Shown: positions 29,614 to 60,463, counted from the stretch's first letter. The stretch is 64,000 nt of DNA from Acidobacteriota bacterium (GCA_963664705.1 OY761556.1:2880001-2944000); one strand, 5' to 3'. Translations and numbers: made by a program. Notes: generated by a model not told the origin, from the letters alone.

Positions 29614-29651
29614 TACATTTGGCGCTATCTCCCAGATCGGGGCTGCAAGAC
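29614..29651 (+). repeat. Class A recombination-like site (variant core)
   Basis: TACATTTGGCGCTATCTCCCAGA|TCGGGGC|TGCAAGAC. Confidence 0.6.
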
Positions 29652-29854
29652 AACATCGATTGCGAGTGAAACGATTTGCCGGTATAACTGAATCTTAAGT
29701 CGTCTTACCTCCTGTAGTGCTGACATTGGTCGCGCTTAAGGGATGGAATACATGAAGCCAAGGATTGGGTTCAGTTCTCGGTGAGCAAAACGGCGGAATT
29801 CGGCTCGCAAAAGATGAGCGTATTCGATTGCTACTAGCGCAAGAGTTTATATCT

Positions 29855-30664
29855 ATGCCAGAGATCACTCGCACTGAAGGACAACGAGCTTTTGGGCACG
29901 ATCCCGCGGGTTATGATCATGCCAGACTCGAATATCCGCCAAGTGTTTATGACATTTTGTGCGACCGTTGCGGTTTACGACCTGGAGCGCACACGTTCGA
30001 GGTTGGACCAGGGACAGGCATCGCAACCCGGCAACTGTTGCGGCTCGGAGCGGCTCCACTGATAGCAGTGGAGCCGGATGAGCGCCTTGCTGCATTTCTG
30101 GCAAATACAATAGGCCGGCACACCAGTAATCTCGAGATAAAGATAGTTACTTTTGAGGATGCGGAGCTGCCCTCCGGCTGGTTCGACCTGGGCACGGCTG
30201 CTTCAGTTCTTCACTGGCTCGATGAAGAGGCCGCCCTTCGCAAGGCAGCTAGCATTTTGCGCCCAGGCGGCTGGTGGGCCATGTGGTGGAATGTCTTTGG
30301 TGACCCCTCACAACCCAGTGAGTTTCACGAGGCCACTCAAAGCCTGTGGGCAAATCTGGACCGGAGCCCCGGAAATAGTTCCGACGGCCAGCCTCCATTT
30401 GCTTTAGACATAGATAGCCGCATTGATCGGCTACAGTCCACAGGTACATTCGAAAGTATCACCGGTGAAATAATGCGCTGGACGGAGACCTTAGATACGG
30501 ATCAAGTGATGAAACTGTACGCTACCTTCCCATCGATCAGTCGACTGAATCCTGCGGAGCGGCAGCAGTTCCTCGAGGGGCTCGCTCTTGTTGCTGACAA
30601 CAAATTCGGTGGCCGCGTCAAGCTATTCATGGTGACAGCGCTCTATACGGCGCAGCGGCGGTAG
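29855..30664 (+). CDS. Class I SAM-dependent methyltransferase
   Basis: YD.AR..YP, EVGPGTGIAT, AVEPD, LHW, LRPGGW. Confidence 0.9.
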   Translation: MPEITRTEGQRAFGHDPAGYDHARLEYPPSVYDILCDRCGLRPGAHTFEVGPGTGIATRQLLRLGAAPLIAVEPDERLAAFLANTIGRHTSNLEIKIVTFEDAELPSGWFDLGTAASVLHWLDEEAALRKAASILRPGGWWAMWWNVFGDPSQPSEFHEATQSLWANLDRSPGNSSDGQPPFALDIDSRIDRLQSTGTFESITGEIMRWTETLDTDQVMKLYATFPSISRLNPAERQQFLEGLALVADNKFGGRVKLFMVTALYTAQRR

Positions 30665-30834
30665 TGGGTACAAGGTGGATATCGAGTTTACCCCTGCCGT
30701 AAAAGGAAGTAGAACGGAAAACGCAAAAGATATCGTTAAGAATATTTCTAAACCATATCTCGACTTGCGACAAACATTTGATTAGGCCCTGCTGTTCCGA
30801 CTAGGCGGTTGCACCGTTTTCCTGGAGGCAGATA

Positions 30835-32232
30835 TTATGGCACCCTGAATTCCGCATTCGAAGGCGGCGTTACGGCCTTCTCCTCCGGTCGGGGAATCTG
30901 CGACAGCCACGCGTACGGCACCCGGTATGCCCGGTACACGGCACCCACGCCACGTGCTCCCGTCGGCAGAGGGCTCATATACTCCCACACGATCCGGCGA
31001 TCGCTGGTCACCTCGAACACACGTCCGCCGGCGCCTTCGGTGATAAGCGTGTTGCCGTTCGGCAGCCGCTGCATACCGCTGATGTTGGTGCTGAAGAACT
31101 GGTCCCCTGCCGTGTACGACCAGACGAGCTTCAGCGTTATCGGATCTATCTCGAGGACCCGCGAAGTGGACCGAGCATAAATGCCGATGCCGTTCGGCGC
31201 AATTCCGCTGGGCTCCCCGTAGCCGCTTGAGCCCCCGTTATCGAATACGAGCAGGTTGCCCGCGCCGGGAAGCCCCTTGGGGATGAGGTGGGCGTGATGC
31301 TGGCCGATGATCTGGCCTATCGCGCGCATCGCATCGGATTCGAGGAAGTTGGGCCCAAGCCGCCATACGATCGAACCGTCGCGCGCGATGATGGCAAGCA
31401 GGCTCGCTTCGCGGCAGCTGATGATAATGTTATTCGGTGCAAACCGCTTGTCGCCGGCATCGAACCATCGGTTCGGTCCAACATAGGTCGCGGAATTGAT
31501 GTGCAGCCAGTCGAATGCGGCCGGTGCGGCAGCGCCTCGGTTACCGGCGCGGGCGCCTCGGATCGAAGCACGTGCCCGCGCATCGAAACCCATCTCTCCA
31601 ATGTGGTCGCCCGCGATCCACTCCCAGATGATTTCGCCCGTCGGCGACAGCTCAAGGATGCGGTCGTCCTGCAGCAGCACATCGGCGATGTCGGGTACGC
31701 GGCGGTCGGTGTGCGTCAGAATCAGAGTGTTGGCGCCGGAGCGGGCGGGCGTCGCCTCTGGCGAGTAATAGCCCGCTGGAAAATCCTCGCGCTGCCAATC
31801 GTGGTGCTGGCGCGCCGACCAGATGTTCTGGCCATTTGCGGTCGGGATCTCCTGATTGCGATTAAAGCTCCAGATTTCCTTGCCGTTAAAATCACGCTGA
31901 ATGAGTGCCAGCGACTCCTGCCGTCCCTCCCGAGCGCCACTGGCTGCAATGACATCGCCGTTTGGCAATACCCGCGCCGGACCTCCAGCTGAGTTGTTGA
32001 ATCCATCCCATCGCTTGACGGTCCGGCCGTTCATGTCGATGACAACCACCGCCTGCGTGCCCAAGAGAGAGAGCACGGTGTAGCCGTTCCATGCACCCGC
32101 GGGCTCGTAAATCGTTGTACCGGTCGGAAACACCGAAGGGCCGGCTTGTCCCATCAGCGACAGCACCATCAGGGTAATTGCGGTGAGGCCAAGTGTCCTT
32201 TGACTGATTTCGGGCAAAAATAATCGAATCAT
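30835..32232 (-). CDS. Arylsulfotransferase (ASST)-family protein
   Basis: RQHHD, DWLHINS, GQHHAH, VFDNG, SGMQRLPNGNTLITEG, VYRAYR; signal peptide; RBS AAGGAG. Confidence 0.85.
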   Translation of the reverse strand: MIRLFLPEISQRTLGLTAITLMVLSLMGQAGPSVFPTGTTIYEPAGAWNGYTVLSLLGTQAVVVIDMNGRTVKRWDGFNNSAGGPARVLPNGDVIAASGAREGRQESLALIQRDFNGKEIWSFNRNQEIPTANGQNIWSARQHHDWQREDFPAGYYSPEATPARSGANTLILTHTDRRVPDIADVLLQDDRILELSPTGEIIWEWIAGDHIGEMGFDARARASIRGARAGNRGAAAPAAFDWLHINSATYVGPNRWFDAGDKRFAPNNIIISCREASLLAIIARDGSIVWRLGPNFLESDAMRAIGQIIGQHHAHLIPKGLPGAGNLLVFDNGGSSGYGEPSGIAPNGIGIYARSTSRVLEIDPITLKLVWSYTAGDQFFSTNISGMQRLPNGNTLITEGAGGRVFEVTSDRRIVWEYMSPLPTGARGVGAVYRAYRVPYAWLSQIPRPEEKAVTPPSNAEFRVP

Positions 32233-32770
32233 GTCCGTCTCCTTTGGCAATCCGTACCTGGTTATATTGTCCCTTGGCACTCTTCCCATGTTCCCGGTTA
32301 GGAATGGGCACCCAATGGCTCCACCACGCAGCCCTTGCCCGGTTTGACTACTGCTCCAGTGAATTGCAGGATCGTCCCGATTTCAAAATCAGTATGCCAA
32401 AGCGGTCCCAGGAGTGAGCCTGTTTTTGACGGCGTGGCGGCGTCCAGAATTGTCAATCGCCATCCCGACCACATAGCCTCGATTATCGTCTAAGGGAGAG
32501 TTTTTTGGCATCACATTAATGTCAAGACCTCGCTTTCTGACCCAGAGCCTTGGTTCGCAACCGCCCGAATTTGCGGGGCCAACAATTATTTGCCAACAAT
32601 TATTTGGCGCCGGCCTTGTACATGAATGATCCGGCTGTTGGGCTGTCTGCAGGCGAACAAACCAATGACGGCCAGCGCGGCATGCGCTTCAAGGCATTTA
32701 AAATCTCAATCCCGATGGCACTATCTTACATTGACGTATGACGCTCGATCCGAAGATGTGGCTTCCCTGG

Positions 32771-32798
32771 TTGTCCGGATGTCGCGTTCCAGGAAGTA
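32771..32798 (-). repeat. Class A site, inverted copy
   Basis: - strand TACTTCCTGGA|ACGCGAC|ATCCGGACAA. Confidence 0.6.
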
Positions 32799-32854
32799 TG
32801 AAATTTTAATTTCATGGGGGATTCAAGGACATTCCGGGTGGCAATAAATTCGCC

Positions 32855-33478
32855 TTATTCTCCGGGCTGCGCGGGGTAGGTCAGTATCGACAAGCCGGTT
32901 GCTATATCCGAGCGGTCTCGCCGCTTCGGGTGGGCGAGGTGAATCATATTTCTAAGTGGTTTTTCGCCTGTAGAAAAGGATCCGCTAATTGTTATCGAGA
33001 CGGAACTCCCGCAAGGATCATTGTCTTCGGTGCAGTATGTCCAGATTAAAACATCGATCTCCTGATTCGGCTTTGTTGTTATTGGCGTAACTGTATGTCC
33101 TAATTCACGCATCCAGAGAATAGATCGTTTTGGCTTTATCGAGAAAGAGAAGGTCTTTCGCGGACTCTCTATAATTCTGCCGGGCTCTGCACGACATACT
33201 GGGACCTTTGTTTTGAACGCCGTCACCCCGTCCAGCTGTGCTTCCAACACCATCGAAATTCCGGATCGTTCTGCACCCATTCCAGGGAGCCGCTCACAGA
33301 CAGCGGTAACAGCCCCCAAAAAAGTCAAGGCGGTGATCGGCAGTCGCGAGTTTAGAAGGGCTCTCAGCATGACGGCTTCCAGGGAGACAATTATTTCCAT
33401 ACTGTTAGACACACGAAAGTCACCGAAGGTTCCCACCATCTGAGTTGTCTTTGTCAAACGGCTCTGTCGAACCGTCAA
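32855..33478 (-). CDS. Hypothetical protein (start uncertain)
   Basis: 207-aa ORF filling the interval. Confidence 0.5.
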   Translation of the reverse strand: MTVRQSRLTKTTQMVGTFGDFRVSNSMEIIVSLEAVMLRALLNSRLPITALTFLGAVTAVCERLPGMGAERSGISMVLEAQLDGVTAFKTKVPVCRAEPGRIIESPRKTFSFSIKPKRSILWMRELGHTVTPITTKPNQEIDVLIWTYCTEDNDPCGSSVSITISGSFSTGEKPLRNMIHLAHPKRRDRSDIATGLSILTYPAQPGE

Positions 33479-33658
33479 ATATGTGCACGTATATCTTTAT
33501 GCTTATGGCTCGATGAATGAAGCAAAAGAACGCATGAAGGTGTATCCGGAGTTTTACAACAGCTTAATCACAGATCGTGTGATTCTCCGGGGCTTGCCCA
33601 AATCAACCTGTTTATGTTCGCGTTGGAATTGTGATATATAAGTTATTGAGGAATCCTG

Positions 33659-33670
33659 ATGCGGAACTAG
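33659..33670 (+). promoter_or_regulatory. Putative leader uORF (Met-Arg-Asn-stop) of the ABC-F gene
   Basis: GAGGA-6 nt-ATGCGGAACTAG, about 180 nt upstream of the ABC-F GTG. Confidence 0.45.
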
Positions 33671-33850
33671 CGACAAACTCTAGACAACGTTGTTGGGCAA
33701 CCAACCGCTTCTATTTCGGTCGGTATGGCAGCTGTTGTCTTGTTGCGTCGCGCGCATGAGGATGTTTTGCTTTCGCACTCCGGATCCCCGCCAACCCAAC
33801 AGACACGCAATGCACCATGCTCCTCCGACCGCGATTCAGAAGGAGGTAGC

Positions 33851-37222: not shown

Positions 37223-37264
37223 CATTCTGGCGCAATTTTTCATATTGGGACTGCGGGACAATTG
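37223..37264 (+). repeat. Class A site
   Basis: CATTCTGGCGCAATTTTTCATA|TTGGGAC|TGCGGGACAATT. Confidence 0.6.
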
Positions 37265-43110: not shown

Positions 43111-44256
43111 ATGAAGGAAATCCTTAATATCAGCCTTATGCTTCTTTTCTATGCAGGCGGTCAGCCGTATACCGTCAGTGATTATATTATTTCGACAATC
43201 GCTGGAGGCATGAAATCTGTTGGAGACGAACGGGAAGGCGGACCCGCCGAGCAGGCATATTTTGGTTCAATGTTGGGTCTTACGGTAGCTCCTAATGGCG
43301 CGATCTACGTTGCAGATCCAGGAAGGCACAGAATTTGCAAAATCACCCCTGATGGGAAGATGTTTAAGGTTGCGGGTAGAGGCAGCCTCCCGGAACCATG
43401 CTGTATCGAGACATCAGCACGGAAGGGATATCAATTCAGGGTCGAGGGGAAAGCCGCCTTTATTGACGGTGAACCGGCGTCTACCGTTGATCTGGATTTT
43501 CCAATCGGGGTAGCGATCGATATGGATGGTAACACTTACATATCGGATGCATCCAATAACCGCATAAATAAGGTGGATAAAGCAGGACTCATTTACACGA
43601 TAGCCGGTGATGGACTCCCAGGTTATAGCGGAGACGGCGGCCCCGCTAAGCAGGCGCGCCTCCATTATCCAACAGGCATAGCGGTGGACAATTTGGGGAA
43701 TTTATATATTGCCGATAGCGCCAATAATCGCATTCGAATGATCGACTCAAAGGGAATGATTCAGACCATAGCCGGAAATGGAAAATCAAAAGATAGCAAA
43801 AATGGAGATCTTGCAATAAAAGCCAGCCTCAAAAAACCATCCGGAGTTGCAGTTAACGCCAACAACATTGTCTACATTGCAGATAGCGTTGATGCTAGGA
43901 TCAAACGGATTAATCGAGATGGCCGTATTGAATTTGTTGCGGGTACAGGAAGACATGAATTTGTGGGGGACGAAATCCCTGCTATCCAATCGGGACTGTT
44001 TGCGCCCTCTGGCATTGCAATAGACGCGGCCGATAACCTGTACATTGCCGAAACGGGGCGCGTTCGGAAGATTGATCGAAATGGCATCATACACACAATT
44101 GCAGGTGGCGTAACAGCAGCAAGATCACGTCACGACGGCGTTCTTGGCATTCGATCCTACATATTTCCGGATGGGATTGCAGTTGATGCTGCGGGTAAGG
44201 TTTATATTGCGGATCAAGGCACAATCCGCCGCCTCACTGCTGATCACTCCCAATAA
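43111..44256 (+). CDS. NHL-repeat beta-propeller protein
   Basis: Repeated PxGxAxDxxGNxYIADxxNNRIR and TIAG.G..G.SGDGGPA. Confidence 0.9.
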   Translation: MKEILNISLMLLFYAGGQPYTVSDYIISTIAGGMKSVGDEREGGPAEQAYFGSMLGLTVAPNGAIYVADPGRHRICKITPDGKMFKVAGRGSLPEPCCIETSARKGYQFRVEGKAAFIDGEPASTVDLDFPIGVAIDMDGNTYISDASNNRINKVDKAGLIYTIAGDGLPGYSGDGGPAKQARLHYPTGIAVDNLGNLYIADSANNRIRMIDSKGMIQTIAGNGKSKDSKNGDLAIKASLKKPSGVAVNANNIVYIADSVDARIKRINRDGRIEFVAGTGRHEFVGDEIPAIQSGLFAPSGIAIDAADNLYIAETGRVRKIDRNGIIHTIAGGVTAARSRHDGVLGIRSYIFPDGIAVDAAGKVYIADQGTIRRLTADHSQ

Positions 44257-44277
44257 ACGGCATCCTGGGAGATTGCC
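44247..44277 (-). repeat. Class B site, containing the NHL gene stop codon
   Basis: - strand GGCAATCTCCCAGG|ATGCCGT|TTATTGGGAG. Confidence 0.75.
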
Positions 44278-46765: not shown

Positions 46766-46865
46766 GGTCGGTGCCGGTCCCATTTAACTACGCGGAGCGG
46801 CGCAGGCTTTGCGTTATGGCGTTATCTCCGCGAACGCGACATAACCGGCCAATCTCTGCCCGTTT

Positions 46866-48002
46866 TTAGGCTCTGCGGAGTTTGCCCGCCTCTATGATTA
46901 TTTTGGTAAGGCGATTGGAGAGCCGGTTGAGGCATTTGCGTTCAGCACTAATCGGCAGCCCTCGCCGAAACATCTCCATTGCACGTTGAGTTGCGTGCAA
47001 TGAATCGATTACCCCATCTAAACCAGTTCGAATCGGATCCGACGTTCTCGGCTGAGGGACTAAATGTCGAGGTTTTGAATGAGCCAGTTGAAACTCTCTC
47101 TGAAGATCCTTCAAGGCCACTTCGATATAGAGCATTGTCATATTCGGAGAAGTGTGGCCGAGTAATTTCATCAGCACAGGAAAACTGACGCCGGAGCGAA
47201 GCATCTCCGTGGCATAGGTATGGCGAAACTGGTGTGGAACGATGCGAGTGGAGATTTCGAGAGAATAACAAACTTCATGCAGATAATCGCGAAGGCCACG
47301 AACGAGCGCGTACTTGGTGCTGGGCCGCGCCAGAAGTCGACCATCAGGAGGACACGGATCTAGGAAACGAAAGAATCGCAAGCGTTGGATAATCGCGACT
47401 ATCGACGAATCCACCGGGACCATCCGTTCCGTTTTGAGTTTGCCAAGTGGTACGTGAATGGCCCACTGGCGGAGACCAGTCGAGCGGAGGCAATCGACGG
47501 GCAAATCGGCGCACTCGCCAATACGCATGCCGGTATGGCGGAGGAGCAGAAAGACATTCGATCCTAGATCGTTGCGCTTGACGAACTCCTTCTGCAGAAG
47601 CTGATCCTGTTCGGCGGTGAGCGGACGTGCAAGTCTATGCGGGCGGCGCGGAATATCTTCACGACGAATCAGGTGGGCAACTTGAGGAAGCTGTTTGGTC
47701 CACGCCAGTTCTATGAACAGAGGGCGCAAAGCAATGAGCTTACCAATATAGGTAGATGTGGCGAGCGGAGGCGTCTGGGCGCGCAAGTGGGACATCCAGC
47801 CGAGGAGGTGTGGCTCCCGCCGCAGTTGATCTAGGGCGTTTACCTCCGGGTAGTTGGTGCCGAGATAACTAAGGAAGTTACGTACGGTCCCGCGATATTG
47901 GACATGGCTTGCAGAGCCGAGTGCAGTGCAGAGCGAATCGACCGCGCGATCAAAGAGATCCACCAGTGGATGTGAGAGGGGAGGACGCCAGGAGCGTTTC
48001 AT
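46866..48002 (-). CDS. Tyrosine recombinase 2
   Basis: TGMRIGE, KLKTER, HQFRHTYAT, LLGH...MTMLY; ATGA overlap with the upstream recombinase. Confidence 0.95.
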   Translation of the reverse strand: MKRSWRPPLSHPLVDLFDRAVDSLCTALGSASHVQYRGTVRNFLSYLGTNYPEVNALDQLRREPHLLGWMSHLRAQTPPLATSTYIGKLIALRPLFIELAWTKQLPQVAHLIRREDIPRRPHRLARPLTAEQDQLLQKEFVKRNDLGSNVFLLLRHTGMRIGECADLPVDCLRSTGLRQWAIHVPLGKLKTERMVPVDSSIVAIIQRLRFFRFLDPCPPDGRLLARPSTKYALVRGLRDYLHEVCYSLEISTRIVPHQFRHTYATEMLRSGVSFPVLMKLLGHTSPNMTMLYIEVALKDLQREFQLAHSKPRHLVPQPRTSDPIRTGLDGVIDSLHATQRAMEMFRRGLPISAERKCLNRLSNRLTKIIIEAGKLRRA

Positions 48003-49045
48003 GAAGGAAGCCTCGGAAGGGGGCGGACTTGCAGCGCTACTGCGCGCGTATACTGCTGGTAAACGTCTTGTGGTGTGATCTGCACATAATGCAGGGTCGT
48101 CTGGATATCGGAATGCCCCATCAACTGCATAAGTGCCGGCAGGCTGATTCCGGCGCGTATCATATCGGAAGCGAATGTGTGCCGGAAGCGATGTGGGTGA
48201 GCAAGCGGAATGCCAGTGTGCTTGCGATGGTAACGGAACAATGACCGCAGTCCGGCCAGAGTCATACGGAACCCGCGGGCCGGTCCCTTGAGCGAGACGA
48301 AAAGCGCAGCGGTGGCAACCTGGGGTCGTTCCCTCCGCCGATAGTGGTCGAGGAGTTGCACTGTCTCCGGCGCCAGTGGCAGTAAGCGTATTTTGTTACC
48401 CTTGCCGCGTACGCGCAGCTGCGCTTCGGAGAGCAACAAGTCGTCCTCATTCAGCCCCAACACTTCGGCCGAGCGAAGCCCTTGAAGAAGCATTACTCCT
48501 ACGAGAGCCAAATCGCGAGCCGTACGGAAACTGGACCAAAAACGCGCCACCTCGTCCACCGAAAGCGGAACAAGTTGGCGTTTGGGCACTTTCACTCGCA
48601 GCCGGCTTATGGCTAGGCGCCGACGGCCTAGGCCCAGCGGTCCACGCCGCAAATAAACATGTTGGAAGCCCTGTGCCATGGACGATGGGGAGTCGGGGAA
48701 CTGGTTGCGAAGAGCACGATCGGCAACGCCAACACGGTGATTGATTGTGTAACTGGAAATCGGGGGTTGGTGGTTACACTGGAACTTCAGATAATCCTGG
48801 AGAGTCGATTCGGTCAGGTCGGCTGTGCAAACCTCAGCGGTGTGATGAAGACTCTCCCACCAGCGAACAAAATGTAGCAGGTAGTAAGCCCATGCTCGCA
48901 GAGTAGTATCCGCCAACCGACGGACATACTCGTGATCAAGGTAGCGATTGATCCAGCCAACCTCCTGACCGGTTTCTTGCTCGACCACACGAACCGGGCT
49001 TTGTGCTGTGTTGCGAATCTGCGGGCGAATCACACAAAATTTCAT
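47999..49045 (-). CDS. Tyrosine recombinase 1
   Basis: GLRSAE, GKGNK, HRFRHTFAS, MGHSDIQTTLHY; probable start MKFCVIR. Confidence 0.95.
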   Translation of the reverse strand: MKFCVIRPQIRNTAQSPVRVVEQETGQEVGWINRYLDHEYVRRLADTTLRAWAYYLLHFVRWWESLHHTAEVCTADLTESTLQDYLKFQCNHQPPISSYTINHRVGVADRALRNQFPDSPSSMAQGFQHVYLRRGPLGLGRRRLAISRLRVKVPKRQLVPLSVDEVARFWSSFRTARDLALVGVMLLQGLRSAEVLGLNEDDLLLSEAQLRVRGKGNKIRLLPLAPETVQLLDHYRRRERPQVATAALFVSLKGPARGFRMTLAGLRSLFRYHRKHTGIPLAHPHRFRHTFASDMIRAGISLPALMQLMGHSDIQTTLHYVQITPQDVYQQYTRAVALQVRPLPRLPS

Positions 49046-49082
49046 AGCTGAGCCAAGCTCCAGAAAAGAATGTGTATCAGAG

Positions 49083-49400
49083 TCAGGCAGCAGGAAGTTC
49101 AAGTACCTGGTAGACTCCATCTTTGAATGCGATCAGATCTCGCGTCAGGAGTTCATCACGGGCGCCGGTAAGTTCGTGGCGGTGATGAATCTCGAGGAGT
49201 TCCGCCATACGTTCGTCGGAATAAAAACTCACACCATCCCGATTAGCAACAGCGACCAAGATTAAGTAGAGAAGCTTTTCCAATCGGGTTAGTCCCTGAT
49301 CGAAACCCTGCCGAAAAAAACGATGGTCAATCCAACTGAAAGAACCGCGGATGGTGCGGATTCGATCCGGCTGTAGTGGTTGAGGTCGTTTGTTCATCAT
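49083..49400 (-). CDS. Small element-encoded protein, possible winged-helix DNA-binding protein
   Basis: 105 aa, FSWIDHRF...LLYLILVAVA.RDGVSFYSD....LL...YQVL.LP; co-oriented upstream of the recombinases. Confidence 0.7.
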   Translation of the reverse strand: MMNKRPQPLQPDRIRTIRGSFSWIDHRFFRQGFDQGLTRLEKLLYLILVAVANRDGVSFYSDERMAELLEIHHRHELTGARDELLTRDLIAFKDGVYQVLELPAA

Positions 49401-49479
49401 GCTTTCCCCATTTTGTACATGCCGAAATTAACGAAGCTATATGGAATGAATCAATATGTCGGGACTAAATCTAAAAAGC

Positions 49480-49983
49480 TCATGGGCGGCTGGGGCAACG
49501 ATCCGACCAACGTCTCTCTCGTTCCAGAACTCGTTCGAGAGCGCGGCGACATGCATAGGAACAGAAGCGTTGCAGGGGCGACCGCCGGCTGCGGTGGAAT
49601 TCTTGGTATCAACCAGGGCGATCGCAGGAACACGAAAATAAATTTCTTATAATGACCCTCGCGTCGCCGGCCGGGCCCTTGTTTTGTTGCGTGCGCTCCT
49701 TTTGCCGCACTCTGTATCTGTGGCTTTGAACGCGGCGAACCTGCTTTCCACCATCAGTTTTGCGGTACTTTTGCCGGGCTTTCCACTCTCTCCATTTTCC
49801 CGCCTCATTGCGGCAATGCTCGCTACAATAGCGTGCTCGGGGGTGTTCCGGCCGGAATATGCGACCGCAGCCTTTCAGCAAACACGCACGGGCGCGCGGC
49901 CATCTGGCTTTTCGCTTGGTATGGGGTCTTGTTCCTTTTGCTTGATTTTGAAGGAGAATTATCGGATGTTCACGAGGGCCCAT
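49480..49983 (-). CDS. Basic protein with two Cys4 zinc-finger-like motifs, interrupted by an in-frame TGA at 49609-49611
   Basis: CLLKGC..F......YCSEHCR, then CDRPG*YQEF......RFCSYACRR continuing in frame for 42 codons. Confidence 0.65.
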
Positions 49984-50348
49984 GGGAGTTGCCTCTCCCA
50001 GAAGCTCAAGCCTCGAGGGGGACCCATTCCCCTTCGGGGCGCACTGAGCACAATTGGATGCAATATCCTTAACCCTGCTCTTAGATTAGGATCGGAATTA
50101 AAACTGGCGGGATTACTCGTAAATCAAATTCAATTTTCCGAGCAGTCATAGTCCTTTGGGGTTGTAATTGCGGAGCACCCGAAAAAAGGCGGAGAAGAAT
50201 AAGGGAAAAGCTATTTATCTCACTTCATAATTTGAAGATTCACGGAAATTCTTTATAGACCATTTTTGATTATTGGCCGGTTATTTTGGACTTCGTGGGA
50301 GTAAGCCGAAAAAATCAAATACTTACACTTGATGGTACAATGATGTCG

Positions 50349-50876
50349 ATGCGGAAAAACTCTCTAATTGTATCCATAATCTGCTGGTTGTGCTTAGGCA
50401 TGAGTTCCAGCACTGCGTCGCCGAAGAACAAAAGATACTGTATTTCATCAGTAAACCAAGTTTCAGCAGCCCTGGCTGCAAGAGATTATCCAGCACTCGC
50501 AAAATTGTCTGCGCGAGTAATCGAGCAATGTGTTGAAACTCTTGATGGGGAGACTGTTGCTGGACTTTATGCCAATCTTGCCATCGCACACAATGAAATG
50601 GAAATGCCTCAACTTGCTCTCAAGGATTGTGAATTGTGCATTGATAAATTCAACGGGGATCCATTGTGCCATAGAGAGAAAGTAAGGGCTTTGATTGCGC
50701 TGCATCGCGAGAAAGAAGCTTTATCGCATTGCACAATTGCTGAAAAAATGACATCAGATCTTATGGAGCAATATAAGAAAAAACTTGATAGCGGCCAAAA
50801 CGAACTGACCAAGTCTCGTCTAAGTCTGGTTAATGCTGTGCGGATGTATTTGTTCCGAGTCTGTCCGCCAAAATAG
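50349..50876 (+). CDS. Secreted helical (TPR-like) hypothetical protein, cassette gene
   Basis: Signal-like N-terminus; TPR-like YANLAIAH..ALKD; lies between two class A sites. Confidence 0.6.
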   Translation: MRKNSLIVSIICWLCLGMSSSTASPKNKRYCISSVNQVSAALAARDYPALAKLSARVIEQCVETLDGETVAGLYANLAIAHNEMEMPQLALKDCELCIDKFNGDPLCHREKVRALIALHREKEALSHCTIAEKMTSDLMEQYKKKLDSGQNELTKSRLSLVNAVRMYLFRVCPPK

Positions 50877-50905: not shown

Positions 50906-50944
50906 TACATTTTGGCGTCATCTCCCGCAATCGGACTTCTGGAC
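50906..50944 (+). repeat. Class A site
   Basis: TACATTTTGGCGTCATCTCCCGCA|ATCGGAC|TTCTGGAC; 23 bp identical to 55534-55556. Confidence 0.85.
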
Positions 50945-50995
50945 CGGAATACTTTGGGATTTCGCAAATGGCGGATCAGCATCGGTTCAGGTAGA

Positions 50996-52257: not shown

Positions 52258-52285
52258 GATTTCCCACAATCGGACTTATGGGGAC
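52258..52285 (+). repeat. Class A site
   Basis: GATTTCCCACA|ATCGGAC|TTATGGGGAC. Confidence 0.8.
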
Positions 52286-52395
52286 CGTTATCCGGCGGAT
52301 GTGATAACATCGCCATCCTAACCGATGCGGATGTCGCCGCGTTGCAGAAGAAAGGCACATAAATCAGTACTGTCACTTACCCGACCGAGGCGCTC

Positions 52396-52911: not shown

Positions 52912-52914
52912 ATC

Positions 52915-52946
52915 GGATTCTTTCCCATAACGCGACTTCTCAGGAG
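52915..52946 (+). repeat. Class A site
   Basis: GGATTCTTTCCCATA|ACGCGAC|TTCTCAGGAG. Confidence 0.7.
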
Positions 52947-53041
52947 CCAGCGAGAAAATTGTGGATTTCCAGAACTCTTTGCGACCACCAAAGCATTTAT
53001 TTGATAGGTGACTGTGGCTTCTATTGTCGATACGGATTTGC

Positions 53042-54194: not shown

Positions 54195-54225
54195 GGCAAC
54201 TTCCTCGATTCCGACTTCCTGGGAC
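54195..54225 (+). repeat. Class A site
   Basis: GGCAACTTCCTCGA|TTCCGAC|TTCCTGGGAC. Confidence 0.8.
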
Positions 54226-54291
54226 TAATCCGGCCGCAGTGCTAAAATGCTTTGTAAAAAGGCGGCTGCAATCTTGTTACCATAACGGATC

Positions 54292-55461: not shown

Positions 55462-55489
55462 CATCACCTAGTGGGTAAACCGATTTGAA

Positions 55490-55518
55490 TTTCTAATAAA
55501 CGGCAATCGCAGAGACGG
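55490..55518 (-). repeat. Class B site (degenerate)
   Basis: - strand CCGTCTCTGCGA|TTGCCGT|TTATTAGAAA. Confidence 0.55.
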
Positions 55519-55535
55519 CACAATCAAGGCTTCTT

Positions 55536-55676: not shown

Positions 55677-55734
55677 TGTTTGAAATTAACACGTTTGATC
55701 CCGTGAGAAGCCGTTCTTATTTGCAGGAGCACAA

Positions 55735-56361
55735 ATGAACCGAATTCACCCTGTCGTGATTGCTTTTGCAGCCTTAATGTTTGCATATTGTCTTTGTGCA
55801 TTTGCGGGGGCTCCATTTCCAATGATTAGAGCAAGTAGTTCAAGCAATGGAAAGTTCCTCGTAATTGCGGAATACCAATATGAGAATCCCGCTGAAACAA
55901 TAAGACGGATCAACAAAATCATTTATCACGTGGATCAAAGGGAAGACTTCATTAATGATCAGTTCACAACCCTAGCTGCATACTGGTCGGATTCAGGGTC
56001 TTGGAATGTCCACCTCGATTGGCCTAAAGGAGTAATGGGAGGGCTATTGCCTTACATTTCCGATGATGGAGAGATTTTAGTTTTTATATCAGTTACGCCG
56101 CCCTTTTCGGGTATAGAGATTTTAAAAATTTATCGAAAAGACGGAAATCAAGGTGCGATGCTTAAGGCTTATCAGCTGAAGGATATTTGGACACCAGCGG
56201 AGATGAACTCACACGCTGATCTTATTTCCAATGGCCGACCATTATGGTTTACAGGGGGAAGTTTCAGTTTTTCGTCAGACAATCAGCAATTTATTCATAA
56301 GACTCCGTGGGGAAAAATAATTCGCATCAATTTGCAGGACGGTTCTGTTTCTAGAGAATAA
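55735..56361 (+). CDS. Secreted hypothetical protein, cassette gene
   Basis: RBS AGGAG; signal peptide ending AFA. Confidence 0.75.
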   Translation: MNRIHPVVIAFAALMFAYCLCAFAGAPFPMIRASSSSNGKFLVIAEYQYENPAETIRRINKIIYHVDQREDFINDQFTTLAAYWSDSGSWNVHLDWPKGVMGGLLPYISDDGEILVFISVTPPFSGIEILKIYRKDGNQGAMLKAYQLKDIWTPAEMNSHADLISNGRPLWFTGGSFSFSSDNQQFIHKTPWGKIIRINLQDGSVSRE

Positions 56362-56393
56362 ATCTGAGTAGCCATTTGAGGGCAGTGATTAAC

Positions 56394-56429
56394 CATTTGG
56401 CGTTATCTCCCACAACGCGACTTCAGGAT
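56394..56429 (+). repeat. Class A site
   Basis: CATTTGGCGTTATCTCCCACA|ACGCGAC|TTCAGGAT. Confidence 0.9.
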
Positions 56430-56509
56430 AAGAGCTTTCTTCCCAATCACTATTATGTTAGGCCAGGCAAGTTATATAATGACTGCACTCGGAGCAGACA
56501 GGAGTTGTT

Positions 56510-56677
56510 ATGAATACTGCACTTCTTTTTGTCGCAATGATAGGAAGTTCGGTTGCGACTGCTTGCGTTGCCGCAGCAAAACATAGGAGTGTCATTTTGT
56601 GGACGATTATAAGTTTAACTATTCCAATCCTGCCCTTGATCGTAGTACTCATCTTGCCAAGCAAGACTTCCGGATAA
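56510..56677 (+). CDS. 55-aa two-TM microprotein, cassette gene (not in the ORF track)
   Basis: TATAAT at 56475, RBS AGGAG, MNTALLFVAMIGSSVATACVAAAKHRSVILWTIISLTIPILPLIVVLILPSKTSG*. Confidence 0.65.
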   Translation: MNTALLFVAMIGSSVATACVAAAKHRSVILWTIISLTIPILPLIVVLILPSKTSG

Positions 56678-56710
56678 ACGGCCAGAACCGACGCAAGGAG
56701 GAGGAATTTG

Positions 56711-56751
56711 CATTGTGGCGTTATGTCCTCGAATCGGACTACAGGACAATT
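56711..56751 (+). repeat. Class A site
   Basis: CATTGTGGCGTTATGTCCTCGA|ATCGGAC|TACAGGACAATT. Confidence 0.85.
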
Positions 56752-56781
56752 ACATCCGGATTTCGGGACAGTTTAATTGAC

Positions 56782-57270
56782 TTATTTATCACTACGTATA
56801 TTTCTTCTGAAATAATATAGGTGAGGTTCTTTCGGATTGCGACCAAACTCAAATCCATCCTGGAAACGTGTTATCGGGCCGTATGATGAAAATGTGTTCA
56901 TGAAATAAATTCCTTCTTCAATGCCATCCCGGAGATTTAACACAATAGCTACATTTAACCGATGATTGTAGACTCGCACCGGCTTTAGTTCCTTTATGGC
57001 ATCAGACCAGCAAACGGATGGAATCTCGAATTCGCCCTTGTCAAAGAATTCTGGAGGAGACCATGCTTTTCCTGTCGACGGGAGCAAGTTTTCACACTTA
57101 CTGTTGCTTTCGAAAGCGGCTGCCCTTATTTCGTTAATGCTTCGATTCGATTTCAGAATTATGTGGCTGAAGCCAACTGCGCTTGTTATCAGTTCCTGAG
57201 AAAAGACGGCCATGCCAACAATGAGAATAATTAAAAGCAACGACGCCACGCATATTAGATAATTTTTCAT
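56782..57270 (-). CDS. Secreted or membrane-anchored hypothetical protein, cassette gene
   Basis: RBS GGAGG then MKNYLICVASLLLIILIVGMAVFS. Confidence 0.7.
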   Translation of the reverse strand: MKNYLICVASLLLIILIVGMAVFSQELITSAVGFSHIILKSNRSINEIRAAAFESNSKCENLLPSTGKAWSPPEFFDKGEFEIPSVCWSDAIKELKPVRVYNHRLNVAIVLNLRDGIEEGIYFMNTFSSYGPITRFQDGFEFGRNPKEPHLYYFRRNIRSDK

Positions 57271-57479
57271 AGAATGCCTCCATTGGCATGGAGCATTTTC
57301 AGCAGTCAATGGAATTTTCCATTGTGTTTATGCATCCCAGCAATTGTGTCCATTATATACAAAGTTAGAGGTTATCCCGATCAATATATTCGACAACTCC
57401 TCGCCGAGGAGCATTTGCTATCATATGTATTAAGAACGATTTGTGGCATTTTATGGCGCTTACTGGCCTGAAACGGGAA

Positions 57480-57729
57480 TTAACCGGCCAATATTGCACG
57501 TATTATGGAATTTCCCCATGAGATTTGGATAGGAAATCAGCTAAATAGCTTGTCCCATATTCTTCTTTTTTCTTCTTCAGATTTGATGCGAGCGGCTTAT
57601 TTACAGGGTGCTGCGACCAGCAAAAATGCGGGCCTACTTATCCACACATATTGGTTCTTGATCGTGTTATAGTCAAAGAAGCAATAGACTTCGCATACCC
57701 TGAAAAACTGGCAGAGATTGGCCGGTTAA
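57480..57729 (+). mobile_element. 250-bp non-autonomous relative of the dual-recombinase element, inserted in a class B site
   Basis: TIRs TTAACCGGCCAAT and ATTGGCCGGTTAA; 57710-57728 is the exact reverse complement of 46842-46860; 57539-57566 matches the reverse complement of 50193-50220 at 25/28. Confidence 0.85.
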
Positions 57730-57758
57730 ACGGCAATGTGGGAAACTGTAAATTTCTG

Positions 57759-58022
57759 TTAATTAATCAGGTCTTTTACTTTTTGCCATTCGGATATTGC
57801 TGCCGCACAGACGTCATCAACGGGCCACATTTGCCCCCAGAGACGATCATGCCTTGTTGCGGCTTCCATAACCAATTCTATGTTGGCTCCCGTATTTACC
57901 AAAGCCAGTAAGACTGCCGAATCGGCAAGAAGTATCCGAAAAATTTGCCTGTCTTCAGCTTGGTGAGTCTTGTTTGCGGCTTGATCGAGGCTGATGATGT
58001 ACTGCGCAATCTTTCGTCTCAT
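57759..58022 (-). CDS. Hypothetical protein, cassette gene
   Basis: 87-aa ORF filling the space between two class B sites. Confidence 0.55.
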   Translation of the reverse strand: MRRKIAQYIISLDQAANKTHQAEDRQIFRILLADSAVLLALVNTGANIELVMEAATRHDRLWGQMWPVDDVCAAAISEWQKVKDLIN

Positions 58023-58142
58023 ATTCTTTGCTTTCTAGCAGTAACCTCGCCGTTTTTATGTCAATTGGCTGCAAATAATGTCCTCGATTCAGAGGCATGA
58101 ATCAATGCGAAAACAAACAATTGGAATCATTCAAAGGGCATA

Positions 58143-58174
58143 GATCCCAAGAAACGGCAATGTGGGAAGTAACC
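58143..58174 (-). repeat. Class B site
   Basis: - strand GGTTACTTCCCACA|TTGCCGT|TTCTTGGGATC. Confidence 0.85.
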
Positions 58175-58223
58175 GGCTCCGGCGGGCATTGTGGAGTTAA
58201 TTGTGATTCCGGGACGGTAGTTT

Positions 58224-58538
58224 TCAAGCAGCGTCAATATTCACTCTCATCTTCAGACCTGCTTCATCAATAAGTTCCTGGAGTGAAAGGCGCACGAATT
58301 GCTCCGGACTGCGGCCCAGAATCTTGGCGAAGCGCGCGGCCCGTTCTGCGCCTACAACCTTGCGGCCTTTTTCGATGTCGCAAAGGTGCGAAGGGGAAAC
58401 GCCGAGTTTGCGAGCAAAGGCAGTTTGAGACATTTCCTCACCCAGGCGGATCGACTCTATAAGCCCCCCTAGGGTTAGCGGCCTACCGGCAACCCGTTCC
58501 AAATATTTCATTGTGTTGCTTTTTGTTTTAGTACGCAT
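58224..58538 (-). CDS. XRE-family HTH antitoxin (HigA-like)
   Basis: MSQTAFARKLGVSPSHLCDIEKGRK; start overlaps the toxin 3' end. Confidence 0.85.
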   Translation of the reverse strand: MRTKTKSNTMKYLERVAGRPLTLGGLIESIRLGEEMSQTAFARKLGVSPSHLCDIEKGRKVVGAERAARFAKILGRSPEQFVRLSLQELIDEAGLKMRVNIDAA

Positions 58539-58771
58539 GCTTTGAAATCTCCTCCACCGAAACAAATTCGATAGAACCGTTGTCATACACTCGATAAATA
58601 GCCCTGTATGCTCGGCTCAATCGGATAGATCGCTGCCCCATTCGGTTGCCATGCAGGGGCTCGTCATGATAGACATAATGGAGTGATCGGTCTCTAGCAT
58701 GTAATATCGTGGGTTACAGCTGAAGTCGTGGTGACGAAGCTGCAGAGCCATAAAACATGAGGAGACCGATC

Positions 58772-59866
58772 ATGGCAGATTGTATCACTTGGGTAGGGAT
58801 GGATGATTCAGCAAAAAAGATAAACGTCGCAATTTTTCGCGGGCAGGAAAGTAACCCTCGAGAAGAACTTGTTGTATCAAACGACAGTACGGGGCTGGGT
58901 CGGTTAGCGAAAAAGCTAAGGGCATTTGAAGATGATGTACGGTGCGTCTACGAAGCGGGCGTTAATGGATACTATTTGCAGCGCTATTTGGCCAAACATG
59001 GGATTTCTTGTGAGGTTGCGGCCCCTTCGTTGACTCCGAGACGAGCGGGGAAAAAAGTAAAAACGGATAAGCTGGATGCGAAAGCCTTGGGCAAATTGTA
59101 CCGAGCGGGAGAACTAACATGTATTGTGATCCCGCAAAAAGAACAGGAAAGTCTGCGAGATCTGGTGCGTGCGCGAGAAGACGCATTGGAAGACCAGCAG
59201 CGAGCACGGCATCGATTAGCACGGTTTCTGATGCGACGTGGATTGAAATATCCGCAGGGCAAGAACTGGTCGCTTGGGCACCTAAAGTGGATTAAGAGCC
59301 TTGTGTTTGAGGATGATGGGGATCAAACAGTACTGGAGGAATATCGACAGGCGCTTGAGCAACAGACGGAGCGGTTGAAAACATTCCAGGGAAAAATCGA
59401 GGAAGTTGCAAAACAGCCGAACTATCAAAAGCGAGTCAGCTATTTGATGGCGCTAAAAGGCGTTCAGGTTCTGACGGCGATGACGATTATCGCAGAAGCG
59501 CTCGATTTAAGACGGTTCGTTGATGCGCCTTCGTTTATGGCCGCTATTGGGGTGGTGCCTTCGGAAAGCAGCTCAGGTGAACTTGAAAGACGGGGAAGGA
59601 TAACCAAAACGGGAAACAGCCACCTACGTAGGGTGCTGATCGAAAGCGCCTGGCACTACCGTCATTCTTCAGTAGCTGGCAAAACTCTCAAGAAACGACG
59701 AGAGTGTTTGCCGGCAGAAGTTATCGAGATTGCACAACGTTGCGATAAGCGATTGAATCAAAAATTCCGACGCATGCTCAACCGAGGGAAAGAAAGACAA
59801 AAGATCGCGGTTGCGGTAAGTCGAGAATTGGCAGGATTTATCTGGGCTATCGGTCGTGTTGCATGA
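58772..59866 (+). CDS. IS110-family transposase/recombinase
   Basis: VGMD, YEAG, KTDKLDA (DEDD), GVVPSESSSG, ITKTGNSHLRRVLIESAW, VAVSREL. Confidence 0.95.
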   Translation: MADCITWVGMDDSAKKINVAIFRGQESNPREELVVSNDSTGLGRLAKKLRAFEDDVRCVYEAGVNGYYLQRYLAKHGISCEVAAPSLTPRRAGKKVKTDKLDAKALGKLYRAGELTCIVIPQKEQESLRDLVRAREDALEDQQRARHRLARFLMRRGLKYPQGKNWSLGHLKWIKSLVFEDDGDQTVLEEYRQALEQQTERLKTFQGKIEEVAKQPNYQKRVSYLMALKGVQVLTAMTIIAEALDLRRFVDAPSFMAAIGVVPSESSSGELERRGRITKTGNSHLRRVLIESAWHYRHSSVAGKTLKKRRECLPAEVIEIAQRCDKRLNQKFRRMLNRGKERQKIAVAVSRELAGFIWAIGRVA

Positions 59867-59939
59867 CATAAGGCACCAGCTCTTGCAGCTATTTTGTTCT
59901 TCAATGGATTAATAACGGAAACATTCGGTTAGTGAACGG

Positions 59940-60125
59940 AACAGGAGATCGAGTTCCAGGCTTCGAAAGGAGAAACCTCGACCTGGCTATGTTGGTATGG
60001 GAAACCAGAATCCACGGAAGTAGAGTGAGGCCGCTCCCGATGAATCAGTTGTCATGCGTGCTTATCGACCCGCGAATATCAGATTGATTATCGTCGCTGT
60101 TGCCAACTCGATCCCCTGTTCTTTT
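59940..60125 (+). ncRNA. Putative bridge/seek RNA in the IS right non-coding end (boundaries approximate)
   Basis: Enclosing stem AACAGGAGATCGAGTT...AACTCGATCCCCTGTT; contains target match ACCTGGCTAT (59981-59990) and donor match ATATCAGA (60076-60083). Confidence 0.65.
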
Positions 60126-60361
60126 TACTGGCTGATTTATTTATGAACCGAAGAAAACCAAAATGAACGAACAAGGAACGGATTGATTGTACTTGACCGA
60201 TCACTCCATATCAGCCAGGTATTTTTCTCACCTCTTCGAGTCCACGCTCCTCAACATCTTCCACCCAGGCGGCGAGGTTTTCCACGATGTGACGTGGTAC
60301 CGTTTGCAGCTGCTTACGCGCTCGCTTGCTTAGCTCCACCTGCAATATCATATCGATTCTA

Positions 60362-60390
60362 GTTATACACCTGTCAGGTGAATGTGTCTA
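60362..60390 (-). promoter_or_regulatory. Toxin-antitoxin promoter with operator palindrome
   Basis: - strand TAGACA-17 nt-TATAAC enclosing CACCTG-a-CAGGTG. Confidence 0.6.
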
Positions 60391-60433
60391 TCAAGTATTT
60401 GAATGCTTGCTTTTTCAAGTGGGAAATGAGGAT

Positions 60434-60463
60434 GACCCTAAGAAACGGCATTCGGAGAAACTA
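60434..60463 (-). repeat. Class B site (last copy before the tRNA)
   Basis: - strand TAGTTTCTCCGA|ATGCCGT|TTCTTAGGGTC. Confidence 0.65.

What the first reader, a model, noticed from the sequence alone, without database searches (positions are those of the whole stretch)
29614..60463. Candidate new gene-cassette system: about 20 short recombination-like sites punctuating an array of single unrelated genes
Seen in sequence: a 30-40-bp imperfect palindrome, (CATTT)TGGCGTTATCTCCCACA|7-bp core|TTC(C)TGGGAC, recurs between genes or at gene ends. Class A copies start at 29614, 32771(-), 37223, 37473, 42916, 44308, 46813/50285 (split), 50906, 51436, 52258, 52915, 54195, 55536, 55648, 56394 and 56711. 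Class B copies start at 44247, 55490, 56668 (partial), 57451/57730 (split), 58143 and 60434. From 50.3 to 60.5 kb almost every inter-site interval holds one gene or one TA pair, mostly small secreted or membrane unknowns plus a DUF3626-like gene. Established: two inverted arms around a 6-8-bp spacer is the tyrosine-recombinase core-site architecture, and single-gene units with TA modules are typical of integron arrays and Acinetobacter pdif modules. These sites match neither attC (RYYYAAC...GTTRRRY) nor dif. Inference: an integron-like gene capture and shuffling platform using a different site family.
Basis: partly seen in the sequence, partly recalled or inferred. Interest (0 to 1): 0.92.

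Follow-up and report, generated by a model that had tools for sequence, protein, structure and literature searches.

The report
Non-integron gene-cassette array, two site classes
About twenty short palindromic DNA sites separate single accessory genes that turn up with different neighbours in related bacteria, so this is likely a gene-swapping system that works like an integron but uses other sites and probably a different recombinase, whose gene sits among such sites in relatives but was not found in this genome.

Summary
Confirmed: 20 of the 22 listed sites are real 11-6-11 palindromic sites. The two classes are one design with different spacer ends (GAC versus CGT) and lie on opposite strands. 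The genome holds about 60 in six clusters and no integron integrase; the array has no attC pattern, and the true dif site lies elsewhere. The motif recurs in 21 of 30 genomes of this Acidobacteriota genus. Shared genes sit in different neighbourhoods and homology often stops at the spacer, so the modules have moved. A 3.4-kb Tn554-like two-recombinase element (4 of 4 copies) and its 257-bp miniature insert into the spacers; in relatives an IS91-type element does too. Relatives carry a lone Xer-like recombinase gene ('IntX') with sites pointing outward on both sides (8 of 8 genus loci have a site). It was not found here, so this array is probably an orphan, like a CALIN. Which enzyme moves the cassettes is inferred, not shown. 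Ten literature searches found no description. The scan had already noted this kind of system on other DNA (e1-6400047, e1-9511296, e1-6689759).

The parts
29627..29654 (+). class A site (spacer slightly decayed)
   Evidence: 21.2 bits
32770..32797 (-). class A site pointing left; with 37235 it bounds a 4.5-kb segment from which sites diverge, the position where relatives carry the IntX gene (none here)
   Evidence: 26.9 bits; layout in relatives; absence
37235..37262 (+). class A site
   Evidence: 21.6 bits
37406..37433 (-). weak class B site, paired with the A site 80 bp to its right
   Evidence: 11.7 bits
37487..37514 (+). class A site
   Evidence: 23.5 bits
42918..42945 (+). class A site
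   Evidence: 16.6 bits
43111..44256 (+). NHL-repeat protein gene filling an A-to-B module
   Evidence: Pfam; interval table
44246..44273 (-). class B site (B/A linker, 69 bp)
   Evidence: 29.8 bits
44316..44343 (+). class A site
   Evidence: 16.1 bits
44593..45879 (-). secreted unknown; found as an A-to-B module in three other neighbourhoods (G014 twice, G002)
46824..46840 (+). left half of a class A site split by the two-recombinase element
46841..50291 (-). 3.45-kb Tn554-like element with inverted ends and its own fixed spacer; 4 copies in the genome, all in class A spacers
46866..48002 (-). tyrosine recombinase TR2, 378 aa
   Evidence: PF00589
47999..49120 (-). tyrosine recombinase TR1, 373 aa
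   Evidence: PF00589
49083..49400 (-). 105-aa small protein, possibly winged helix
   Evidence: no Pfam hit; Atlas look-alike cluster with HTH_36 on 12% of members
49480..49983 (-). Cys-rich ORF of the element with an in-frame TGA at 49609-49611
50292..50302 (+). right arm of the split class A site
50340..50876 (+). secreted unknown; its 3' half and following left arm recur at genome 5,876,103-5,876,409, diverging at the spacer
50920..50947 (+). class A site
   Evidence: 26.9 bits
51440..51467 (+). class A site
   Evidence: 32.3 bits
51544..52173 (+). single cargo gene, lipoprotein-like unknown
   Evidence: no Pfam or NCBIfam hit
52259..52286 (+). class A site
   Evidence: 30.4 bits
52396..52911 (+). 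single cargo gene, secreted unknown
52920..52947 (+). class A site
   Evidence: 28.7 bits
53042..53998 (-). single cargo gene, secreted unknown, opposite strand
54199..54226 (+). class A site
   Evidence: 29.8 bits
54292..55461 (+). DUF3626 gene in an A-to-B module
   Evidence: PF12294 E 2.6e-107
55489..55516 (-). class B site (B/A linker, 60 bp)
   Evidence: 21.4 bits
55550..55577 (+). class A site
   Evidence: 30.8 bits
55648..55680 (+). degenerate class A-like site
   Evidence: 4.0 bits
55735..56361 (+). single cargo gene, secreted unknown
56405..56432 (+). class A site
   Evidence: 33.2 bits
56667..56684 (-). class B half site
56723..56750 (+). class A site
   Evidence: 26.5 bits
56782..57270 (-). 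cargo gene in an A-to-B module; a homologue lies in a B-to-A module in G017
57462..57746 (-). class B site split by a 257-bp miniature of the element (57473-57729) whose spacer ends like class B; unoccupied in G007
57759..58022 (-). 87-aa gene between two class B sites
58143..58170 (-). class B site
   Evidence: 34.0 bits
58224..60350 (-). toxin-antitoxin pair (HigA-like antitoxin 58224-58586; partner gene split by IS110 at 58670-60219); contiguous and site-bounded in G006 and G024
60434..60461 (-). last class B site
   Evidence: 26.4 bits
61014..61088 (-). tRNA-Arg(CCT) next to the array's right end; no repeat of its 3' end in the window

Best explanation
The sites bound gene modules that have changed neighbours between and within genomes, and they are likely the substrates of a dedicated Xer-like tyrosine recombinase (IntX) whose gene lies between outward-pointing sites in relatives but was not found in this genome. 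Inferred mechanism: four IntX subunits bind the two symmetric 11-bp arms of two double-stranded sites. Strand exchange needs identity only in the last three spacer bases, so A recombines with A and B with B but not A with B. A-to-A recombination would excise or insert a cassette; an A exchange plus a B exchange would swap a module bounded by one of each. Arrays would thus grow outward on both sides of the integrase gene and end in inward-facing B sites. The 43-81-bp B/A linkers look like integrase-free miniature platforms. Junctions keep the left partner's spacer, which suggests one strand exchange resolved by replication; this is shown as a pattern only for the inserted elements and a few cassettes. 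This window is read as an orphan array. The Tn554-like element, its miniature and the IS91-type element of relatives are read as parasites that use the sites as safe landing pads.
For: Shown: sites are clustered and avoid genes (12 of 130 deep inside ORFs where 72% is coding). 47 of 84 intervals hold one ORF and 20 hold two; in single-ORF direct intervals 25 genes face with the site and 6 against; adjacent A and B sites lie on opposite strands in 34 of 36 cases. 15 of 81 homology ends lie within 15 nt of a spacer against 3.5% expected; base-level junctions are, including 98-99% identical modules duplicated spacer to spacer within G014 and G017. Window modules recur with other neighbours. For the two-recombinase element in metagenomes, left and right junction spacers agree at 4, 2, 8, 18, 20, 21, 21 of 22 across the seven positions. 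Left and right arms do not co-vary (5.41 against 5.46 +/- 0.07 for shuffled partners), as expected for arms read as double-stranded DNA and reshuffled. IntX link: a site of 16 bits or more lies within 1.5 kb at 14 of 21 family loci and 8 of 8 genus loci, against 0 of 6 loci from other families and 5 of 26 other recombinase loci of the genus. The nearest site points away from intX in 20 of 21 cases (my tally, five of them at 10.5-13.6 or 16-17 bits or occupied). The layout B, A, intX, A, B recurs in G014 and G119, and nine sites run outward from intX in G017. IntX has the catalytic motifs.
Against: No recombination was observed: no circle or empty site in the laid runs (contigs drop rare forms, and the one raw-read run barely covered the stretch). 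IntX was not found in this genome, in array-rich G042 or in five genomes of another class that carry exact site matches. Only about 8 of 29 other genus genomes have it, while 20 of 29 have sites; many assemblies are fragmented. 62 of 81 homology ends lie more than 60 nt from a spacer; many are internal breaks or unrelated repeats, which I did not curate out. The DUF3626 and 50.9-51.4-kb genes also occur without sites in relatives. intX could itself be cargo that happens to sit between sites. Kin are not independent, so the P values overstate. Two other recombinase families demonstrably reach the same sites.
Confidence: 0.6

Rival explanations
1. The two recombinases of the Tn554-like element do the work. 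One subunit recognises the site arms as its target and can also recombine site with site, so the arrays are by-products of this element family.
For: It is the only candidate intact in this genome, with four copies, two pairs 99.7% identical. It follows the same junction rule as the cassettes and has A- and B-matched miniatures. Flanks of soil relatives are enriched in target-like sites (13 against 1.7 expected at 14 bits, with some double counting).
Against: Intact pairs were found in only 2 of 29 other genus genomes, one with different targets. It sits inside spacers at scattered array positions, not at a fixed platform position. Its own ends are unlike the site arms.
Confidence: 0.14
2. The host's XerC (with or without XerD) recombines the sites, as with Acinetobacter dif modules, and intX is a passenger.
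For: The 11-6-11 size equals dif. The left arm shares 6.1 of 11 bases with the XerC-side arm of the host dif and resembles a plasmid XerC arm printed in PMC12907356. XerC and XerD are the recombinases common to the site-bearing genomes checked, including two with only four recombinase genes.
Against: Neither arm matches the XerD arm (4.8-5.3 of 11), which is conserved in this host's dif. Both arms are alike, which fits a single protein. It does not explain the oriented link to intX.
Confidence: 0.12
3. The integron-integrase-like recombinase of the IS91-type element moves the cassettes as well as itself.
For: It occurs in 12 of 29 other genus genomes. 10 of 16 distinct left ends follow a left arm plus spacer. 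Its joined ends are predicted to fold into a copy of the site with a 4-nt bulge. It scores 180.7 bits on the IntI model, below the 265 cut-off.
Against: Only remnants remain in this genome. Cassette ends lack the second arm copy needed for that fold. Earlier scan notes report the same element type at attC sites of true integrons, which points to a general parasite (unchecked).
Confidence: 0.06
4. The sites are landing pads and scars of mobile elements. Cargo reached these hot spots by other routes, and there is no cassette shuffling as such.
For: Clusters lie in island-like regions, five of six within about 30 kb of a tRNA. Most homology ends are not at spacers.
Against: Modules without any element end are duplicated spacer to spacer at 98-99% identity. 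The strict A/B polarity and gene-sized spacing are unexplained by scars.
Confidence: 0.07
5. The motif is a transcription-factor site or a REP-like repeat.
For: It is palindromic and intergenic. One site overlaps a promoter-like match.
Against: It is confined to accessory clusters, lies at both gene ends, has class-specific spacer ends and is split at the spacer by recombinase elements. Promoter matches are at chance level (16 against 13.5). Rfam finds only the tRNA.
Confidence: 0.01

Closest known systems
Integrons and CALINs (IntI, attI, attC; PMC4889954, PMC4792948, passages read)
   Same: Arrays of single, mostly unknown genes and toxin-antitoxin pairs between recombination sites; integrase gene beside the first site in relatives; integrase-less arrays; three-base homology at the crossover.
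   Different: No IntI over cut-off and no attC pattern. Sites are 28-bp symmetric with no arm co-variation. Arrays run both ways from the integrase, there are two non-matching site classes, and genes start a median 121 nt from the site.
dif/pdif modules of Acinetobacter (host XerC/XerD; PMC12907356, passages read)
   Same: 11-6-11 sites, modules bounded by inversely oriented sites with different spacers, chromosomal module islands, toxin-antitoxin cargo, insertion sequences that home to the sites.
   Different: No XerD arm; both arms are alike; 58 of 97 intervals are direct repeats; a separate recombinase gene is linked to the sites.
Tn554-related tandems, SE, GInt, GMT and RIT elements (PMC3414803 section 10, PMC10214605, bioRxiv 2023.03.28.534373, passages read) - for the inserted 3.45-kb element
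   Same: Two tandem tyrosine recombinases, closest annotated hits are actinobacterial Tn554-like tandems (30-36% identity); inverted-repeat target; target spacer left at one junction and element spacer at the other.
   Different: Perfectly inverted ends, a fixed own spacer rather than a footprint of the last donor site, two small upstream genes instead of a downstream TnpC, two recombinases rather than three.
CTXphi/VGJphi-type Xer exploiters (PMC3442271, passages read) - mechanistic analogue
   Same: One pair of strand exchanges with homology on one side of the spacer, resolved by replication; folded single-stranded attachment site (predicted here for the IS91-type element).
   Different: Those use host XerCD at the single dif site; here the targets are many non-dif sites.
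Bacteroidales rAID-1 arrays (recalled; the paper was not held)
   Same: Recalled as gene arrays with repeated intergenic sequences beside a XerD-like recombinase, likened to integrons.
   Different: Not compared here; site sequence, classes and enzyme relationship untested.

Membership tests
Integron / CALIN | IntI integrase with its specific insertion domain | tested here: not met
   TIGR02249: best genome hit 87.6 bits against cut-off 265; IntX 52.9 bits
Integron / CALIN | attC sites (RYYYAAC ...
   0 pattern matches in 42801-60500, shuffled mean 2.0; arms do not co-vary. IntegronFinder's covariance model was not available.
Integron / CALIN | Array of single co-oriented genes, one per site | tested here: met
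   47 of 84 intervals hold one ORF; 25 of 31 face with the site; orientation is looser than in integrons
Integron / CALIN | Cassette promoter Pc and attI next to the integrase | tested here: inconclusive
   Sites flank intX in relatives; promoter scan at chance level
dif/pdif modules | 28-bp site of two 11-bp arms and a 6-bp spacer | tested here: met
   Column profile of 176 sites
dif/pdif modules | One XerC arm and one conserved XerD arm | tested here: not met
   4.8-5.3 of 11 identity to the host XerD arm; both arms share one consensus
dif/pdif modules | Modules bounded by inversely oriented sites | tested here: inconclusive
   39 of 97 intervals are inverted, 58 direct
dif/pdif modules | Dependence on host XerC/XerD | not testable with these tools
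   Needs a recombination assay
Tn554-related elements (for the inserted element) | Tandem TnpA/TnpB-like tyrosine recombinases | tested here: met
   Best plasmid hits are tandems of the kind listed as Tn554-like in PMC3414803, for example on pBD2; identity only 30-36%
Tn554-related elements (for the inserted element) | TnpC gene downstream | tested here: not met
   TR2 ends 25 bp from the element end; its two C-terminal helices (low-confidence model) could stand in, untested
Tn554 / SE elements | Spacer footprint carried over from the previous site | tested here: not met
   All four copies carry the same spacer at the right junction with three different target spacers on the left; spacer composition differs from target composition
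RIT elements | Three overlapping recombinases RitA, RitB, RitC | tested here: not met
   Two recombinases only; weak similarity to RIT-like proteins from relatives, named by my own reading

The most novel reading that the evidence does not exclude
A third major class of bacterial gene-cassette system beside integrons and dif modules. It is a two-directional platform centred on a very large, unnamed Xer-like integrase family (at least 7,782 proteins at E <= 1e-60) and uses two orthogonal symmetric sites for natural cassette exchange. It builds much of the accessory secretome of Acidobacteriota, leaves orphan arrays like this one, and has its own guild of site-mimicking parasites.
Probability: 0.5. 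Interest if true: 0.92.

Novelty: new variant of a known kind. Interest (0 to 1): 0.8.

Why it matters
Integrons and dif modules are the two well-described ways bacteria shuffle single genes by site-specific recombination. A third, built from a one-protein recombinase and two non-cross-reacting 28-bp sites, would help explain the hypervariable islands of unknown secreted proteins in Acidobacteriota, a dominant and mostly uncultured soil and sediment phylum. It would give a rule for finding adaptive cargo that IntegronFinder cannot see, and a simple model for how integron-like platforms arise from Xer-like ancestors acting on double-stranded sites, the ancestral activity discussed in PMC4792948. 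Orthogonal A and B sites with one enzyme are also what cassette-exchange tools need. Enzyme, sites and predicted specificities are all named, so the claim can be tested directly with plasmid assays.

Tried and rejected
Integron: no IntI and no attC pattern. dif: the host's dif lies at genome 2,036,985 beside xerD and is a different sequence. RNA family or REP: Rfam gives only the tRNA. Promoter in the TGGCG extension: one match at 55534, overall chance level. attC-like folding of single sites: no arm co-variation. Folding of B/A linkers into a paired site: the two spacers would mismatch (inspection). A and B as two halves of one 7-bp core: ACG starts 19 class A cores, about what base frequencies give, so dropped. 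A tRNA-integrated island with a repeated att: no repeat of the tRNA 3' end in the window. Circles or empty sites in reads: the listed joints fit other genomic copies of the element; no RNA holder listed; run X5 covers only patches. AlphaFold model of TR2 was low confidence (pLDDT 57.5) and no fold search was run. The bulge-removal script matched only 3 ends and mis-registered two, so the fold claim rests mainly. A recombinase tree did not return and was not repeated. Viral contigs gave four IntX-like loci, not examined. The HTH-nucleotidyltransferase-like gene beside intX in four genomes occurs here without sites or intX, so it is not treated as a core part. Literature searches found no description of these sites or this platform; most subscription journals are not covered, and I read no supplements, which for PMC8138268 may already class IntX in a named subgroup.
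Full report
Observation. The listed sites exist. A profile from 12 window sites found 36 genome hits at 20 bits or more, 24 outside the window, against 0 in a shuffled genome. With the final profile 20 of the 22 sites are confirmed, one is degenerate and one is a half site, and none occurs in window 1-29000. Short-read contigs reproduce the non-repeated parts of the array exactly.

Anatomy of the site. Over 176 distinct sites from this genome and relatives, the symmetric register is 11-6-11: left arm A(T/C)TTCCC(A/C)(G/C)A(A/T), a right arm that is its looser inverse, and a spacer ending GAC (class A, 125) or CGT/TGT (class B, 51). Class B is the same design on the other strand. Left and right arms of a site match each other no better than shuffled partners (5.41 against 5.46 of 11). 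The arms are moderately like the left arm of the host's own dif (6.1 and 5.1 of 11) and less like its right arm; calling these the XerC and XerD arms rests on established dif anatomy. The dif itself lies beside xerD, about 0.87 Mb away.

Distribution. The genome (6.89 Mb, one contig; neighbours are titled Acidobacteriota) has six clusters: 65 hits in 157 kb against 25 in the remaining 6.74 Mb at 16 bits (a site can be counted under both classes). The long motif is in 21 of 30 genus genomes with 1 control hit in all and 33 of 125 class genomes, mostly this family. A strict core pattern hit 13 of 401 phylum genomes, eight of them in one family of another class.

Grammar. In 97 intervals of up to 6 kb, 58 are direct, 25 have right arms inward (modules) and 14 have left arms inward, nine of these only 43-81 bp. 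Adjacent A and B sites are on opposite strands in 34 of 36 cases. 47 of 84 intervals hold one ORF and 20 hold two; 25 of 31 single genes face with the site. Cargo is mostly secreted or membrane unknowns, small enzymes, regulators and toxin-antitoxin pairs.

The modules have moved. After masking known mobile elements, 15 of 81 homology ends lie within 15 nt of a spacer against 3.5% expected; 4 lie at 16-60 nt, 24 at 61-300 and 38 further away, many being internal breaks or unrelated repeats. Clear cases: a 1.27-kb cassette duplicated spacer to spacer in G014, a 1.0-kb cassette on two G014 contigs, an A-to-B module at 98.9% identity on two G014 contigs, and a B-to-A module on two G017 contigs. 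From this window, the 44.6-45.9-kb gene occurs in four neighbourhoods, the toxin-antitoxin pair is site-bounded beside other genes in G006, G024 and G043, the 56.8-57.3-kb gene lies in a module in G017, and the B site holding the miniature element is empty in G007. The end of the 50.3-50.9-kb gene recurs elsewhere in this genome and diverges at the spacer. Against: two cargo genes also occur without sites in relatives, and a MarR gene pair duplicated in this genome does not extend to its sites.

Elements that insert in the sites. The 3.45-kb unit at 46841-50291 has two tyrosine recombinases and inverted ends. All four genome copies sit in class A spacers in one orientation, and the 257-bp miniature sits in a class B spacer. 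The family is large (4,010 hits among 7,999 scored), its closest annotated relatives are Tn554-like tandems, and its left and right junction spacers agree only in the last four of seven positions. In relatives an IS91-type element with an IntI-like recombinase also follows left arm plus spacer at 10 of 16 distinct left ends, in A and B versions, and the joined ends of one copy fold into a copy of the site with a 4-nt bulge. Three independent users of one junction rule argue that the sites are functional.

The probable cognate enzyme. No IntI is present. Prompted by earlier scan notes, I looked for a lone recombinase near sites and found a 313-315-aa Xer-like family, IntX. It was hit in 20 of 50 family genomes and 9 of 29 genus genomes, one of the nine being a 32%-identity hit to another recombinase. 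Sites lie within 1.5 kb at 14 of 21 family loci, 8 of 8 genus loci, 0 of 6 loci from other families and 5 of 26 other recombinase loci, four of those five being the IS91-type element. By my tally, 12 of 14 copies at 71% identity or more to the query have a 16-bit site, against 2 of the 12 more distant ones, and the nearest site points away from the gene in 20 of 21 cases. G014 and G119 show B, A, intX, A, B. In this window the sites diverge from 32781-37245 in the same way, but IntX was not found there or anywhere in the genome, nor in G042 or five site-bearing genomes of another class. The family is very large (7,782 of 8,000 candidates at E <= 1e-60).

Mechanism, by status. Shown: site structure, two classes, polarity, module movement, spacer-precise insertion of two element families, oriented association with intX in relatives. 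Inferred: that IntX binds and recombines the sites; that three-base identity makes A and B orthogonal; that one exchange is resolved by replication, by analogy with CTXphi, VGJphi and IntI (PMC3442271, PMC4792948, passages) and SE elements (PMC10214605, passages); that this array lost or never had its integrase, like a CALIN (PMC4889954, passages). Not addressed: how new genes first acquire sites.

Comparison. It works like an integron and is built like dif modules but fails a defining test of each. rAID-1 arrays are a recalled precedent for a Xer-like enzyme beside a cassette array; the paper was not held. Papers seen: passages of PMC8138268, PMC10214605, PMC3442271, PMC12907356, PMC4792948, PMC4889954 and bioRxiv 2023.03.28.534373; passages and section 10 of PMC3414803; only the listing and abstract start of bioRxiv 2022.12.17.520857 on insertion sequences that target Xer sites. 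Ten searches found no description. The scan's own note e1-6400047, on a related recombinase in another genome, reached a similar reading; it is not independent proof.

Verdict. A real, mobile gene-cassette array of an apparently undescribed type; about 0.9 that the sites are recombination sites bounding mobile modules, 0.6 that IntX is the enzyme. Interest 0.8.

Noticed in passing
window 49480-49983 (-), TGA at 49609-49611: The element's Cys-rich ORF has an in-frame TGA where a Cys would be expected, kept in all 4 distinct copies found (this genome's two subtypes, G018, one metagenome), with a conserved frame after it. Selenocysteine or read-through in a mobile element is possible; the host has tRNA-Sec. 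The downstream hairpin was not consistently predicted.
   Followed up: partly
L041, L162-L169, L200, L215, L085; remnants at genome 5,017,958-5,018,340 and 5,121,735-5,122,277: IS91-type element with an IntI-like recombinase whose ends are predicted to fold into a mimic of the A or B site.
   Followed up: partly
L038 10780-10870 (G014): A near-perfect long inverted repeat of the IS91-type right end with a site right arm on both sides, possibly a hairpin-derived remnant.
   Followed up: no
window 58670-60219: IS110-family element, 11 copies in the genome at 98.9-100% identity, inserted in the toxin gene of the toxin-antitoxin module.
   Followed up: partly
window 61014-61088; genome clusters at 1.35, 5.02, 5.61 and 6.71 Mb: Five of six site clusters lie within about 30 kb of a tRNA; two are inside tRNA-Arg satellite-like islands with their own integrases, a possible vehicle for spread.
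   Followed up: partly
L205 13165-13899 and genome 6,405,696-6,406,340: A 244-aa protein with weak winged-helix and nucleotidyltransferase matches lies divergent from intX in several genomes and alone between outward-pointing A sites in G002; here it has no sites.
   Followed up: partly
L045, L046 (G043): A distant relative of the two-recombinase element (38-46% identity, similar ends) inserts at sequences unlike these sites, so target choice varies within the family.
   Followed up: partly
L288-L295: Genomes of another class carry one to three near-perfect sites each, sparse and without IntX detected.
   Followed up: partly
window 33447-33563: IS3-family end remnant inside the segment from which the sites diverge.
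   Followed up: no
genome 5,895,444-5,896,601 (L004): A tyrosyl-tRNA synthetase-like gene sits as cargo directly after a class A site.
   Followed up: no
L361-L364: IntX-like genes on four viral contigs; flanks not examined.
   Followed up: no
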